A DNA stretch of 64,000 nucleotides, taken from positions 76,818,001 through 76,882,000 of the forward strand of contig OX597828.1 of assembly GCA_951406725.2 (NCBI GenBank). The letters run 5' to 3'. This stretch comes from Octopus vulgaris (lineage: Eukaryota). The translations under genes were made by a program, and so were the position numbers. This document shows positions 18,620 through 56,754 of the stretch, in pieces; position 1 is the stretch's first letter, and each line of letters begins with the position of its first letter. The notes beneath the pieces were generated by a model. The model made no database searches. It was not told the origin of the DNA and saw only the letters and a list, made by a program, of their open reading frames with translations.

Positions 18620-19068
18620 ATACAAATGAATATAGTACTTAAGTTGAGGCACCAGAATTTAGTACGTTATTATCCATACAATTTCAAAATAAAGTGATTA
18701 AAATCAAAATAAGCAACAAGGATATCCAGAGGTAATGCTGTACGATCGTTTCAAGCAACTTCATTTAATTGAACAATGCAATCAATTCAACAATTTAAAT
18801 GCACAGCAATCCTCAGCTGCATAAAGACATAAAATTTGAATTAAAACAGATAGACACATTAGTATAACTTTACCTAAAATCTCCAAGAAGGTATTTCCTT
18901 ACCTTCTTGGAGATTTTAGGTAAAATTATACTAATGTGTCCTTATTTTTTAATTTAATTAAATTCTGTCTTGATGCAGCTAAGTATTGCTCTGCATTGTT
19001 CAATTAAATGGAGTTGCTTGAAACGATCGTACTGCATTACCTCTGGATGTCCTTGTTGCTTATTTTTA
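18620..19068. mobile_element. palindromic non-coding element with a hammerhead-like motif in each arm
   Basis: Arms 18706-18893 and 18900-19067 are reverse complements around a 6-nt spacer. Minus-strand arm reads ATGCAG-CTGAGGA-(long imperfect stem II)-GAAA-CGATCG-TA-CAGCAT. Plus arm has an intact stem I (ATGCAG/CTGCAT) but a decayed core (CTAAGTA). Flanked by (ATGT)n. Confidence 0.7.
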
Positions 19069-19849
19069 TGCATGTATGTATGTATGTTTATATAGATAGA
19101 TAGATAGATAGATAGATAGATAGATAGATAGATAGATAGATAGATATGTAAGGAAAATCGGTCAAAAGTCATAACGGAATACCAACGTTATGATTCTAAA
19201 ATTCTAATGTATATCTGTGTGTGTGTGTGTGTGTGTGTGTGTGTGTGTGTGTGTGTGTGTGTGTGTGTGTGTGTGTGTGTGTGTGTCTGTGTCTGTGTGC
19301 GTGCGTGTGTAACACAAACACACTTTTATTGGAATTGAACTTCACAATCAAGGAGCTTTTACCTGTTACTCAAGCGTTTGTCAGACAGCTATAGTTATTC
19401 AAAAATGTCTGACTAACGGTTGCGGGAAACTGAATAACAATTGTAAAATTTTGTCAACCTCCATAAAACCACATTTCACTCTACTTTTAATGTTTTCATA
19501 TTCAAGCACGAGATTCTCCGTATTTTGCACCTATTTGCCCACATGTGTGTCTAAGTGTATATACTAAATACACTCATGGAGCATTAGTCGTCTCTGGGTT
19601 AAAGTAGAGGTCACGTTGCCGCTCACTTGGACTAAATCCAACACCACGGGATTGCAAATCGAGTTCTTAACCTCGTAGTAAAAGATATGACAGAAAATTA
19701 AATCACTGCTTCTGCATTCTTGGTAATGCTCTACCATTTCTATGAGGAGGTAAGACGTTTGAACTTAACGAAATCGTGTGTTTGAAGCCAAGGATGAAAA
19801 GTGCAATTTCTCCGTGCTTATCTGCCCTTCTGCGCCCTACCTCTCCTCA

Positions 19850-20095
19850 TCTTGCGCTGGAGATGAACAGCATCGTAGGACAGTTTTCTGGATATCGTAA
19901 ATGAATAAAATTAGCATTTTTTGTTGATTGTGCAACAGACCAAATCAGCAGGAGAGTAATGATTTCACGGTCATTTGTTTTTATCAGTAACGTCTTGCTA
20001 CCTTGAATTCTGACCGTTTTAGCAGAAGGCTCAGCGAATGATAACGACACTTCGTCCATATTATCAGCTGACGCTAATTCATAATTTGCTTCAGA
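19850..20095 (-). pseudogene. degenerate pogo/Tigger-family DDE transposase fragment
   Basis: Translation ..ADNMDEVSLSFAEPSAKTVRIQGSKTLLIKTNDRE resembles the pogo first-Asp block NMDE.PL.F.MP...TV...G.KT..IKT.G.E. Confidence 0.6.
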
Positions 20096-20884
20096 GATTG
20101 AACACGTATTTAGGAAATTTCATAATCTTTCTTTATATTCTTCGGAGAAATTCTGTATAAGCTTTTTTGTGTGTGTGTGCGTGCGTGCGCGCGCGCGTGT
20201 GTGTGTGTGTGTGTGTCCTGAACCTGTAACATCCACATTAAGGTCCAACTCATTCATCCATTTGGTCGTTTCCATTCTACTTGTCTCCTTGCCTCTCCAA
20301 TGATTATTTTTGTGGACACTTTATCCTACTACAATGTCTACCCACCCCACTGCATTTAACGTGATGAAGTCCATTGTGCGTTTCTTCTTCTTTTCTGTAT
20401 TTCCTCGATGTTTGCTTCATCATTGCACTATTCAATTCGTTGGTGATGGTCACAAAACAGAGACACACAGACAGCTGCGGTTAGTCACATGACTCACGAA
20501 ATAGCAATTAACTGACCTGGATATGAGATAGTTTTTAACAACAGAGGGAAACCAGCAGTAAACAATGTACACTGACCTTTGACATTCCGAGAAAGTGGAG
20601 GTGTCAAAGTAGTTATATAATTAAATAAATATGCTGGGTCATTTAGGTTATTACTAATGGCATTGCTCTTTGATTTCAGACATTGGCAGTTCAGAAAATT
20701 ACATTCGGGTGCTGGATATTTACAACATAACAGCTCTTCAATCTCTCTCTCCCTCTCTCCCCTTCTCTCTCTCTCCCTCACACACACACACAAACACGCA
20801 CAGACAAAAACACACATACACATAACTCTCTTTACTTTTCCCTTCAATTTTTTTGTCCAACTAGCTCCTGATTTGTTAATTCGT

Positions 20885-53932: not shown

Positions 53933-56086
53933 ATGAAAGAAGACATCGCAGAATTCTGCAGAAAATTAAGACTTACTGAGGAGCTATACGATAAATACAA
54001 CGAGGACGAATCGTTAGCCAGAAATAGGAGTAACTACACCCCCTCGAAAGGTAAGAACAAAACACTTGATGATTTCTGTGACCACATATCTAATTACCCA
54101 TATCAACATATGCACAAACAAAAACACAAACCAAACTTCAGCAAAAAAGAATGGGCTGAGTTGAACAAATTAATACTAGATAAAACAATAACAATCAAAG
54201 AGGCCGATAAAGGGAGTGCTGTTGTCTTAATGGATACGACATTTTACATAACTTTGGTTCTTTCTATGCTGGAAGACACAACATACTATGAAAAGGCACA
54301 AAACTACAGTCAACAAAAAATAATGAGGGAACTAAAATCCATATTAAACCCATACAAAGCAGGGCTCACCGACAAAGAATATGATTATATGACCAATTTC
54401 ACAAGTAAAACTAGCCAATTCTACGGTATACCTAAGATCCACAAAAGTGAAAAAATAAGCAACGCATGCAAGATAGCCACAGACAAAATAATTAAAGTCC
54501 CTAATCCTAATGACCTCAAATTGAGACCCATAATAGCAGGTCCCGCATGCGAAACCCACCGCCTCAGTAACTTTTTAGACACCCTGTTAAAACCACTCCT
54601 CAAACATGTCAAAAGCTATATAAGGGACGACTTAGATATGCTCAATCACCTACCGAATACTATAAACCAAAACACCATACTGGTATCCTTCGATGTAGTC
54701 AACCTCTACTCCAATATCCCCCACAACCTAGGACTAGAGGCAATCCAATTCTGGCTAGAGAATCACGCCAACGAACTACCACACCGCATCAAAAAAGAAT
54801 TCGTGATAGAAGGGGTTAAATTCATCCTGGAAAATAACTTCTTCGCCTTCAATGACAACTTCTACCGACAAAAATCGTGGACTGCGATGGGTACACGAAT
54901 GGCCCCCTCCTTTGCCAACCTAGTCATAGGATACCTAGAGATCAGTCTGTATCGTAAGGTTCTAGAAAGATATGGCAGCCCTTTCTCCATCTACATAGAA
55001 AACAACTTGAAGAGATATCTAGATGACTGTTTCATTCTTTGGCATAAAAATATAGAAAAACTCATAGAATTCCAGGAAATTTTAAACGGGCTGGACGTAA
55101 ACATCCAATTCACGATGGAATATAGCCAGCAACAACTTCCCTTCCTCGATATCCTCATTAAGAAAGCTAATAATATAATAGAAACAGACATATACTATAA
55201 GCCTACAGACTCTAAGCAATATCTTCCATACAATTCATGCCACCCCAGACACACCAGGATGAATATCCCCTTTAATCTAGCAAAAAGGATATGCACTATA
55301 GTCTCTAAAGCAAACACCAGAGACACACGACTACAAGAACTAAAAGATACCCTTATCACCAGGAACTATCCACCTTCACTTATTGACAAGTGCATTCAAC
55401 GTGCCCTTCAACTTAACATCAAGGAACTGAGACATCCCAAATCAAAGAAAAACTTACAACCAAAAGCCTTACCATACATCTCCACACACAACCCTCTCAA
55501 TAACGAAGCCTTCGGCACCATCCTCCACAACATACCCCTCCTAAAAAAAGACCACAGAATGAACACAATCCTCCAAACACACACGGTCATAAAAAGCAAA
55601 AGACAGCCTAGATCCATGAAAAGTCTCCTAACACAAGCCCGAATTCACTCTTCAACACAGAAGCCGACAGTAAAAAAATGTGGAAGACCCAATTGCGGGA
55701 TATGCGACTATCTAATCGAGGGTTCTGAGTTCTCCTTCAAACAGGGACAACGGTTTACAGTGAAAAGCAACTTCACATGTGCTTCGGAGAACCTAATATA
55801 CTCACTAACCTGCTCCGGGTGTCAAGAGCAGTACATAGGCCAAACAAAAAATGGTTTGCGTAAACGAATGGCCCTGCACAGATCCCAGATAAAAATTCCC
55901 CAAAACAGAAAAATAGCTTTTAGCCAACACATAGATACTTGCGCCAACAAAAAAACACCAAACTTCAGAATTTTCCCCCTCTACCAATTTAGGGACGATA
56001 CAACCTCGAGACAACGAATAAGTAAAGAAAATCTCTTTATTATAAAATACAGGCCACTTCTTAACGGGTCTACGACAAACAATTAA
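53933..56086 (+). CDS. Penelope-like (Neptune-type) reverse transcriptase + Cys-rich linker + GIY-YIG endonuclease
   Basis: ADKG, LRPII, SFDVVNLYSNIP, TAMG..APSFAN, RYLDD, LPFLD, S.HP; linker [28 protein letters not shown]...H. The frame is open from 53729 and includes the conserved NLT..EL....IL.KGLKFTP motif upstream of the first ATG. Confidence 0.95.
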   Translation: MKEDIAEFCRKLRLTEELYDKYNEDESLARNRSNYTPSKGKNKTLDDFCDHISNYPYQHMHKQKHKPNFSKKEWAELNKLILDKTITIKEADKGSAVVLMDTTFYITLVLSMLEDTTYYEKAQNYSQQKIMRELKSILNPYKAGLTDKEYDYMTNFTSKTSQFYGIPKIHKSEKISNACKIATDKIIKVPNPNDLKLRPIIAGPACETHRLSNFLDTLLKPLLKHVKSYIRDDLDMLNHLPNTINQNTILVSFDVVNLYSNIPHNLGLEAIQFWLENHANELPHRIKKEFVIEGVKFILENNFFAFNDNFYRQKSWTAMGTRMAPSFANLVIGYLEISLYRKVLERYGSPFSIYIENNLKRYLDDCFILWHKNIEKLIEFQEILNGLDVNIQFTMEYSQQQLPFLDILIKKANNIIETDIYYKPTDSKQYLPYNSCHPRHTRMNIPFNLAKRICTIVSKANTRDTRLQELKDTLITRNYPPSLIDKCIQRALQLNIKELRHPKSKKNLQPKALPYISTHNPLNNEAFGTILHNIPLLKKDHRMNTILQTHTVIKSKRQPRSMKSLLTQARIHSSTQKPTVKKCGRPNCGICDYLIEGSEFSFKQGQRFTVKSNFTCASENLIYSLTCSGCQEQYIGQTKNGLRKRMALHRSQIKIPQNRKIAFSQHIDTCANKKTPNFRIFPLYQFRDDTTSRQRISKENLFIIKYRPLLNGSTTNN

Positions 56087-56630
56087 TATACCTCAACTTA
56101 AGAATAAAAGAAATATATATACACACACAAATATTTCATTCCATAGAATCCATTACGAATCGCCCCATCACAGCTATATCTTCACCCATTCATATTCTCC
56201 CTTCTCTGTTTTTTTCTTCTTCTTCCTCTTCTTCTTCATCATCATCATTATCATCATCATCGTCGTCATCGTCATCACCACCATCATCATCGTCATCTTC
56301 TCCTTCTCCTTCTTCTTCTTCATCGTCATCATCATCGGCACCGTCATCTTCTTCTTCTTCTTCTTCTACTTCTCCACCTTCTACCCCTTAACCTTGTCAC
56401 TAATGTCTTTAAGTATAACGCCTACGCAGCGACTGCCGGTCGCCACTGACCAGCCCAGATTTTCCCACTCCCACCCCCTCAAGAACTCACAACGACCTCG
56501 AATACACAAGTGCAAACAAGGGAGTCAGAGAAAGGCAGAATGCCACCTATATCTGAACACTACTATGGAAGTATTCCTTTAAAAAAACATTTCTTCTAAT
56601 TTTTCTAAATTTTTCTAAATTTAATTATTT

Positions 56631-56683
56631 AATCGTTACAGTTGAAAAGGTCTCAAAATGACCGAAACCGGTACTGAAAGATT
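56631..56683 (+). ncRNA. hammerhead ribozyme (U3-A8 core variant) in PLE 3' UTR
   Basis: AATCGTTACAG-TTGAAAA-GGTC/TCAAAAT/GACC-GAAA-CCGG-TA-CTGAAAGATT; palindromic stem III (ACCGGT) typical of dimer-acting PLE hammerheads. Confidence 0.8.
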
Positions 56684-56754
56684 CACTATAAAATCATCTT
56701 AGCATTTTCTATTTTTGACTTGTTTTTTCATATACATATATATATATACATATA

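What the first reader, a model, noticed from the sequence alone, without database searches (positions are those of the whole stretch)
18620..56738. A shared 'outward-facing hammerhead palindrome' architecture links an autonomous PLE with four unrelated short non-coding elements
Seen: five elements with different sequences (18.62-19.07, 31.33-31.75, 37.55-39.0, 48.7-49.2 and 50.36-56.74 kb) are each two copies of one unit joined 5'-to-5'. Each arm carries a minimal type I hammerhead (C/UUGANGA/AA...GAAA, palindromic stem III: CCGG, CGAT(C/T)G, CAGCTG, CG), always oriented so that 3' ends face outward, mostly into TA-rich or microsatellite DNA. Established: PLEs carry minimal hammerheads in their pseudo-LTRs, which can be inverted, and retrozymes are hammerhead-bounded non-autonomous retroelements usually in direct/tandem repeats. 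Inference: this genome hosts several families of MITE-looking but RNA-mobilised palindromes that parasitise PLE RT/GIY-YIG. They may arise when both nicked strands of the target each prime a cDNA and the two cDNAs are joined at their truncated 5' ends. They would be mis-annotated as DNA MITEs.
Basis: partly seen in the sequence, partly recalled or inferred. Interest (0 to 1): 0.85.

Follow-up and report, generated by a model that had tools for sequence, protein, structure and literature searches.

The report
Back-to-back ends of Penelope retrotransposons
These mirror-image ribozyme elements are the known back-to-back insertions of Penelope-type jumping genes, and three of the four short ones trace to their own protein-coding parent; one family lacks its parent's intron exactly, so it was likely copied from spliced RNA, which offers a testable clue to why these elements normally keep their introns.

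Summary
The five head-to-head, hammerhead-bearing elements are real, but the layout is the published structure of Penelope-like element (PLE) insertions. They are not four non-coding parasites of the 53.7-56.1 kb ORF. A and B are ends of two Hydra-type PLEs, C of a Penelope/Poseidon-type PLE, and E is a truncated Neptune-type copy; D's parent was not found. The middles of C and D are later insertions.

Three results go beyond the papers I read. (1) 82 of 93 neighbouring pairs face outward, and 77 of those 82 carry the PLE 'tail' on exactly one arm. The arms often share private alleles, which fits both DNA strands priming on one RNA. (2) Family B is the exactly spliced 5' leader of its parent (208 junctions genome-wide). 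None of 70 spliced arms runs into the ORF, while all 12 ORF-joined copies with a scorable junction keep the intron. (3) C's repeat carries tRNA-like A and B boxes.

MITE and tandem-retrozyme readings fail. Cleavage and transcription are untested. The scan noted similar features before, in this and other genomes.

The parts
18620..18890 (-). Element A, tailed arm: 5'-truncated 3' end (pseudo-LTR) of a Hydra-type PLE; tail about 18620-18702, hammerhead core 18816-18810
   Evidence: parent ORF in L331
18903..19069 (+). Element A, untailed arm; hammerhead core decayed (18979-18985)
31327..31580 (-). Element B, tailed arm: spliced 5' leader of a second Hydra-type PLE. Exon 1 (27 nt) is joined to exon 2 between 31554 and 31553; intact hammerhead 31540-31506; tail about 31327-31399
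31577..31754 (+). Element B, untailed arm; intact hammerhead 31614-31648; runs into (TA)n
37567..37577 (+). 11-nt direct repeat left of C (second copy 39008-39018), likely target-site duplication
37578..37840 (-). Element C, untailed arm: pseudo-LTR of a Penelope/Poseidon-type PLE with tRNA-like A box (37809-37798) and B box (37766-37756), (AAT)n linker and decayed hammerhead (core 37681-37675)
   Evidence: the boxes are read by eye against a recalled consensus
37931..38790 (+). Later insertion into C's (AAT)n tract: 5'-truncated non-LTR retrotransposon with zinc knuckle and restriction-like endonuclease (R4/Dong-like; name recalled)
   Evidence: a related insertion sits in C at L067
38804..39005 (+). 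Element C, tailed arm; hammerhead core 38867-38873; tail about 38973-39005
48592..48799 (-). Element D, tailed arm (old, 64-77% identical to family copies); tail about 48592-48690; hammerhead core 48785-48779
48827..49041 (+). Unrelated dispersed repeat inserted between D's arms
   Evidence: 72-79% to copies at 35234, 42591 and 57763
49083..49220 (+). Element D, untailed arm; hammerhead 49095-49167 with one core change
50325..53132 (-). Element E, tailed and shorter arm; tail about 50325-50360; hammerhead 50456-50425 (U3-A8 core)
53133..56737 (+). Element E, untailed longer arm: truncated ORF1 (to 53795), RT/GIY-YIG frame 53729-56086 with Neptune-type linker, hammerhead 56642-56673

Best explanation
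All five elements are head-to-head insertions of Penelope-like element termini with a tail on one arm only, three of the four short ones continue elsewhere in the genome into their own RT/GIY-YIG parent, and they likely form when both nicked strands of a TA-rich target prime reverse transcription on the same RNA at two internal sites. Inferred steps: a PLE protein dimer nicks both target strands. One strand primes at the AT-rich site at the end of the pseudo-LTR, the other 30-100 nt further 3', which gives exactly one tailed arm. Both cDNAs run toward the RNA 5' end and are joined there through 0-3 nt of overlap or a few extra bases. When priming is at the 3' repeat of a long, unspliced read-through RNA, the arms are variably truncated and keep the intron (A, E, long B-family copies). 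When priming is at the same sites in the 5' leader of the promoter-started RNA, the cDNAs run off at the start site and give short palindromes (spliced in B; probably unspliced in D and C). Such copies of B and D lack the upstream promoter and are likely dead ends; those of C keep tRNA-like boxes and may be transcribed again. The hammerhead is a passenger of the pseudo-LTR and does not set the element ends.
For: Shown. Parents: B in L206, L338 and L340 (repeat-ORF, open frames of 841 and 852 aa); A in L331 (RT 42% identical to B's parent); C in 13 of 13 loci picked by the upstream stretch, with an RT-endonuclease reading in L266; E full length in L339. The tail is the start of the element body: it runs into ORF1 in 8 of 14 E loci and into the ORF in B's parent. 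Orientation over all five families after removing duplicates: 82 outward, 9 tandem, 2 inward; tails on one arm in 77 of 82, none in 3, both in 2; in the young B set 39 of 39. Independent choice of site by each arm would give at most 50%. The tailed arm is the shorter one in 21 of 71 A-D pairs and 6 of 7 E pairs, which fold-back copying of a tailed first strand cannot produce. Both arms share alleles seen in no other copy in 4 of 20 B pairs and 4 of 5 informative E pairs; one E pair has 0 differences in 961 nt against 1.25% to other copies. Splicing: GT donor in 13 of 16 loci, AG acceptor in 9, intron 1.1-1.5 kb; 208 exact spliced junctions genome-wide, control 0; 0 of 70 spliced arms reach the ORF, and 66 of 70 stop within exon 1. 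Literature: the anole PLE protein nicks and extends both strands, starts at two internal sites that bound the tail, is predicted to be a dimer and does not need hammerhead cleavage in vitro (PMC11167929).
Against: Mean arm divergence in young B pairs (1.3%) is no lower than between loci (1.4%), and the window's E arms still differ at 14 of 2346 sites. Shared private alleles could come from gene conversion between arms or from two RNAs of one source locus. In the old families within-pair distance is only slightly lower than between pairs: A 8.3 vs 10.2%, C 7.7 vs 8.6%, D 18.4 vs 20.1%. Loci were chosen by similarity searches, not at random; the random 580-kb sample held no opposite-strand pair of intact motifs, so it did not test orientation. 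The 12 ORF-joined unspliced copies come from a search aimed at ORF-joined copies. D's parent was not found, and tail-to-body continuity was not seen for A, C or D. Start sites are inferred from where copies end. Three of 19 truncated B arms begin 2-5 nt from the hammerhead cut, a weak hint that cleaved RNA is sometimes the template.
Confidence: 0.7

Rival explanations
1. Same PLE origin, but the two arms are copied from two separate RNA molecules, with an asymmetric protein dimer forcing one long-end and one short-end start; shared alleles come from a common source locus or later conversion.
For: Explains the one-tail rule equally well; within-pair and between-pair distances are similar in B.
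Against: Hundreds of possible source loci exist (339-397 first-look candidates), yet arms share private alleles in 4 of 20 B and 4 of 5 E pairs; old pairs are not strongly homogenised.
Confidence: 0.17
2. Self-priming or fold-back: one cDNA folds at its end and copies itself, as proposed from palindromes at inverted junctions in rotifer PLEs (PMC3846280, passages).
For: Gives identical arms and shared alleles. C has a short palindrome at its 5' end, and the commonest B junction is a small hairpin.
Against: A fold-back copy cannot hold sequence absent from the first strand. The tailed arm is the shorter one in 27 of 78 pairs, so each arm holds sequence that the other lacks.
Confidence: 0.05
3. 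One reading: A-D are independent non-autonomous palindromic families that are transcribed as units and mobilised in trans by PLE enzymes such as E's.
For: Short copies are abundant (1283-5866 first-look candidates per family). One B junction recurs in about half of the pairs. D has no parent found. C keeps internal promoter-like boxes and 5 tandem pairs were seen, so C may in part be self-propagating.
Against: A, B and C run into their own ORFs. B junctions vary at nt 1-17 and the tail sits on either the full or the shorter arm, so the palindrome is rebuilt at each insertion. Solo arms are common (169 of 351 ends).
Confidence: 0.07
4. DNA-transposon MITEs with long terminal inverted repeats.
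For: Short, non-coding, palindromic, high copy number, often in TA.
Against: Exact loss of a GT-AG intron, asymmetric ends, solo arms, variable centres and continuity with RT genes.
Confidence: 0.01

Closest known systems
Endonuclease-bearing PLE insertions with an inverted 5'-truncated copy and a one-sided tail (Craig et al. 2021, 10.1101/2021.04.23.441226, passages and section 15; Arkhipova et al. 2013, PMC3846280, passages)
   Same: Head-to-head arrangement, tail on one end, pseudo-LTR with hammerhead, (TA)n targets, Inr-like start motif, solo repeats.
   Different: Those passages call the tail 'usually' or 'optionally' one-sided. Here it is counted (77 of 82) and tied to arm length and shared alleles. 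Tails reach 70-100 nt rather than 30-40.
Hydra clade of PLEs (Craig et al. 2021, passages)
   Same: Parents of A and B have DKT, CxCx5C, a C-terminal GIY-YIG, a hammerhead and (TA)n targets.
   Different: Longer (3' non-coding regions of about 1.7-3.5 kb against 'generally <3 kb' overall), with a 1.1-1.5-kb leader intron and hundreds of spliced leader copies, not mentioned in the passages read; supplements not seen.
Drosophila virilis Penelope leader intron (Schostak et al. 2008, PMC2377424, passages; Cervera and de la Pena 2014, PMC4209133, parts 1-2 of 4)
   Same: An intron shortly after the start site inside the pseudo-LTR, ending at or near hammerhead stem I; most transcripts spliced while genomic copies keep the intron.
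   Different: There retention is ascribed to selection for intron-dependent expression. Here spliced cDNAs are seen in the genome, and only as short leader copies.
Anolis Poseidon element in vitro (Frangieh et al. 2024, PMC11167929, parts 1-2 of 4)
   Same: Two internal start sites bounding the tail; both strands nicked and extended; AT-rich target.
   Different: That study did not examine inverted products or whether both strands use one RNA.
Animal non-LTR retrozymes (Li, Clavereau and Pollet 2026, 10.64898/2026.07.22.740005, parts 1-3 of 5)
   Same: Type I hammerhead units related to PLE pseudo-LTRs and dependent on PLE enzymes.
   Different: Defined as tandem arrays with a hammerhead in each unit; here pairs are inverted, and ends are set by priming and start sites.
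tRNA-derived SINEs (general knowledge; hammerhead-bearing schistosome Sm-alpha recalled, not read)
   Same: C has A and B box matches at tRNA spacing, and by eye most short copies begin a few nt before them.
   Different: The head lies inside the terminal repeat of an autonomous PLE, and the 3' end is a PLE tail, not a LINE tail.

Membership tests
Endonuclease-bearing Penelope-like element (insertion) | RT plus GIY-YIG ORF in the element or its parent | tested here: met
   E: Pfam RVT_1 above cut-off, GIY-YIG E=0.0013 below cut-off. A, B, C: parents by motifs and tblastn; Pfam gave no RT hit for B's parent. D: see next row.
Endonuclease-bearing Penelope-like element (insertion) | Parent ORF for family D | tested here: inconclusive
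   Shared upstream sequence runs about 300 nt into microsatellite; no ORF in 40 loci apart from one Hydra-type fragment 1.3 kb upstream in L322
Endonuclease-bearing Penelope-like element (insertion) | Pseudo-LTR with minimal type I hammerhead | tested here: met
   Five different stem II sequences around the same core, C3-G8 or U3-A8; repeat on both sides of the ORF in L206, L338, L339
Endonuclease-bearing Penelope-like element (insertion) | Inverted 5'-truncated copy and one-sided tail | tested here: met
   82 of 93 pairs outward; 77 of 82 with one tail
Endonuclease-bearing Penelope-like element (insertion) | Tail equals the start of the element body | tested here: met
   B and E (8 of 14 loci); not seen for A, C, D
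Endonuclease-bearing Penelope-like element (insertion) | Hammerhead self-cleavage | not testable with these tools
   Monomer folds are no more stable than shuffles (z from 0.3 to -1.9), as expected of motifs that need to dimerise
Hydra clade (parents of A and B) | DKT in place of DKG; CxCx5C linker; (TA)n target | tested here: met
   flanks
Hydra clade (parents of A and B) | Placement in an RT tree with reference Hydra elements | not tested
   No reference sequences at hand
Neptune/Nematis-type (E) | DKG, CX2-5CxxC linker and CCHH-type endonuclease | tested here: met
   Read from the translation; Neptune versus Nematis not separated by a tree
Penelope/Poseidon-type (parent of C) | C-terminal GIY-YIG without a zinc-finger linker | tested here: met
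   L258, L260, L266 translations; only broken copies seen, no tree
Non-LTR retrozyme | Tandem array with a hammerhead in each unit | tested here: not met
   9 tandem against 82 inverted pairs
Non-LTR retrozyme | Unit delimited by hammerhead cleavage, circular RNA | tested here: not met
   59 of 78 B arms start at nt 1-10, 3 near the cut at nt 75; circular RNA itself not tested
MITE | Symmetric fixed terminal inverted repeats, DNA intermediate | tested here: not met
   Asymmetric ends, solo arms, spliced junction
tRNA-derived SINE (C) | tRNA-like head with A and B boxes | tested here: inconclusive
   Boxes and spacing match by eye; ARAGORN 0, Rfam 0 in 20 loci at gathering score, no tRNA hit in L076 at E<=10
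tRNA-derived SINE (C) | Pol III transcription of short copies | not testable with these tools
   Needs RNA-end data or a transcription assay
tRNA-derived SINE (C) | 3' end shared with a partner LINE | tested here: not met
   The 3' end is a PLE pseudo-LTR and tail

The most novel reading that the evidence does not exclude
These palindromes record how Penelope-like elements copy themselves and why they keep introns. One RNA is primed twice, once by each target strand, at two fixed internal sites. Spliced mRNA is used only at its 5' leader sites and yields short dead-end palindromes, whereas full-length copies come only from unspliced read-through RNA. Where a tRNA-type promoter sits inside the repeat (family C), the same by-product becomes a SINE-like element that runs on Penelope rather than LINE enzymes.
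Probability: 0.4. Interest if true: 0.7.

Novelty: new variant of a known kind. Interest (0 to 1): 0.42.

Why it matters
Papers on PLEs name the inverted structures and intron retention as unexplained features of their copying cycle. The counts here turn both into direct tests: a one-tail-per-pair rule with shared alleles, and a clean split between spliced short copies and unspliced long copies within one young family that still has open ORFs. For annotation, such palindromes are PLE ends and leaders, not MITEs or a new class. Intact minimal hammerheads occur at about 24 per Mb here (14 in 580 kb), roughly 70,000 in the genome by extrapolation.

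Tried and rejected
A first hammerhead scan was too strict and found 1 motif. Rfam on the window gave only microsatellite noise in the rows listed. ARAGORN and Rfam did not recognise C's head as tRNA. 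Pfam did not recognise B's parent frames. The random 580-kb sample held no opposite-strand pair of intact motifs, so it could not test orientation. The tally counted overlapping loci twice and was replaced. The 'between' figure for B mixes old subfamilies and is not used. Two walks upstream of D found no ORF. No spliced-type copy of E turned up among the loci held, and D shows no intron between its start motif and hammerhead, so splicing is shown for B only. No RNA holder was listed for B's parent; contigs of four runs guessed to be RNA were too short to show a spliced leader joined to the ORF; this is no evidence either way. A genome-wide count of spliced junctions joined to the ORF was not obtained, so that point rests on 70 arms in fetched loci. 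A numeric tally of 5' ends for C and D was not obtained, so their start sites are read by eye. Rejected: MITE, tandem retrozyme, a palindromic master copy, fold-back as the general route, and E as the common driver. Literature searches listed no paper on spliced PLE leader copies, a one-tail rule or tRNA-headed pseudo-LTRs. Subscription papers, Repbase and supplements were not seen, and an octopus repeat annotation (PMC13282606, passages) may hold these families unnamed.

Full report
Observation. The window lies on contig C15 of a 2.8-Gb animal genome in 227 contigs; it is octopus-like by inference from size, microsatellite load and the scan's notes. All five loci are two arms of one family joined 5'-to-5' with hammerhead-type cores facing outward. 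A strict scan finds the four motifs of B and E against 0.1 per shuffle. Three corrections apply. Every element has a 30-100-nt tail on one arm only. The middles of C and D are later insertions: a non-LTR retrotransposon fragment 45% identical to the ORF at 62745-63827, and a dispersed repeat. The window's E lacks the start of ORF1 and its upstream repeat.

Each family is abundant. First-look candidates were 2318 for A, 1283 for B, 5866 for C, 1835 for D and 2304 for E (these are not copy numbers). Top-scoring B and E copies are 95-99% identical to the window's; A, C and D are older (about 80-90%).

Parents. Walking out from the short elements led to protein-coding PLEs. B's upstream sequence, found as a spacer in L018, led to L206: repeat, RT/GIY-YIG frames, long 3' region, repeat. 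L338 and L340 hold open frames of 841 and 852 aa. These carry DKT and CxCx5C, the Hydra marks given by Craig et al.. A continues about 3.4 kb upstream into a second Hydra-type ORF in L331, 42% identical in RT. C follows the stop codon of a GIY-YIG frame without a zinc-finger linker in 13 of 13 loci picked by that upstream stretch, with RT in L266. E has DKG and a CxxxxCxxC linker, and is full length in L339. E and B's parent share no significant BLASTP similarity. D extends about 300 nt upstream and no ORF was reached. So at least four PLE lineages give the same layout, and none needs E's ORF.

The layout is known. Craig et al. describe an inverted 5'-truncated copy at the 5' end and a tail usually on one side. 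Arkhipova et al. call head-to-head the most frequent inverted arrangement. Cervera and de la Pena saw opposite-strand hammerhead pairs 100-700 bp apart, the U3-A8 core, and an intron ending at stem I. Frangieh et al. showed nicking and extension of both strands and two internal start sites that bound the tail.

Rules of the insertion. After removing duplicates, neighbouring ends within 7 kb in all loci held were 82 outward, 9 tandem and 2 inward. Tails were on exactly one arm in 77 of 82 pairs, on none in 3 and on both in 2. The young B set gave 39 of 39, and 20 of 20 opposite-strand junction pairs among the 100 listed rows face outward. The tailed arm is longer, shorter or equal in 25, 21 and 25 of 71 A-D pairs, and shorter in 6 of 7 E pairs. 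Where it is shorter, each arm holds sequence the other lacks, so both must be copied from RNA. The arms share alleles found in no other copy in 4 of 20 B pairs and 4 of 5 informative E pairs. Against this, mean distance within B pairs equals that between loci, old pairs are only a little closer than unrelated arms, conversion is not excluded, and the loci were not a random sample.

B is a spliced leader. In long copies B's first 27 nt are followed by a GT donor (13 of 16 loci), 1.1-1.5 kb of intron and an AG acceptor (9 loci), after which B resumes. The exactly joined form occurs 208 times, control 0. Of 70 spliced arms, 37 end at the inner site, 33 after the tail and none runs on into the ORF. 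Sixty-six stop within exon 1; four arms in two loci start about 75 nt earlier. Of 27 unspliced acceptors, 12 run into the ORF (that set was enriched for such copies). Junctions vary over nt 1-17 and either arm may be the tailed one, so the palindrome is rebuilt at each insertion. The 5' ends do not follow the hammerhead cut: 59 of 78 arms start at nt 1-10 and 3 near the cut. This is direct sequence evidence of an RNA intermediate and rules out a MITE.

C and D. C's repeat begins with A and B box matches at tRNA spacing, and by eye most short copies begin 4-12 nt before the A box. No tool recognised a tRNA, and a TATA-like and an Inr-like word also lie just upstream, so Pol III use is inferred only. 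D copies cluster at an Inr-like word like B's, 30 nt after a TATA-like word, with no intron at that place.

Mechanism (inferred). A protein dimer nicks both strands of a TA-rich target, and each 3' end primes at one of two AT-rich sites on the same RNA. The cDNAs meet head to head. Priming at the 3' repeat of unspliced read-through RNA gives long, variably truncated, intron-bearing copies. Priming at the leader sites of the promoter-started RNA gives run-off palindromes. This would explain intron retention by which RNA gets copied in full, alongside the selection argument of Schostak et al.. I put the whole account at 0.7; two templates under an asymmetric dimer is the main rival.

Novelty and verdict. 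The architecture and clades are known. The tallies, the spliced leader class and the tRNA-like head were not in the papers listed by seven searches or in the parts I read. The scan's own notes had reached similar readings on other DNA of this and other genomes. I looked at them only after forming my reading, and they are not independent evidence. Verdict: new variant of a known kind, interest 0.42.

Noticed in passing
window 53729-53795; L243, L246, L339: Family E keeps two overlapping frames (ORF1 about 410 aa, then RT-endonuclease) in most copies, with a slippery-looking T-run at 53756-53762; a programmed frameshift is possible. One copy (L244) has the frames fused.
   Followed up: partly
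window 56600-56642 and 18975-18980; many A and E loci: A pyrimidine-rich tract ending in AG abuts hammerhead stem I in A and E, like the intron end described for D. virilis Penelope; no spliced copy of A or E was seen among the loci held.
   Followed up: partly
window 37931-38790; L067: A non-LTR retrotransposon has inserted into the (AAT)n tract of family C at two separate loci; related elements lie at 61315-63827 as a partial tandem.
   Followed up: partly
window 5370-5840, 42591-42997, 57528-57920, 35166-35404: Another dispersed repeat occurs as paired copies; the pair at 5370-5840 is inverted with 3' ends meeting (opposite to the PLE layout), the pair at 42591-42997 is direct. No hammerhead was found in it.
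   Followed up: no
window 15682-17224: Inverted pair of a further repeat family, 88-89% identical arms about 740 nt apart.
   Followed up: no
window 7818-8168 (minus strand) and 23855-24362: Fragments of a Neptune-type endonuclease (58% to E) and of a Hydra-type RT thumb (37-39% to B's parent).
   Followed up: no
L018 and L201: Two B palindromes whose four spliced arms all start about 75 nt upstream of the usual 5' end, suggesting a second start site used by both arms of one insertion.
   Followed up: partly
L035:1249, L055:619, L014:2210, L027:916, L048:2227 and the random sample: Several further hammerhead families with other stems, including U3-A8 cores and stem II lengths up to about 95 nt.
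   Followed up: no
L338, L340: B's parent ORF has an asparagine-rich insert between the RT thumb and the endonuclease, like the N-rich inserts of rotifer PLEs (PMC3846280).
   Followed up: no
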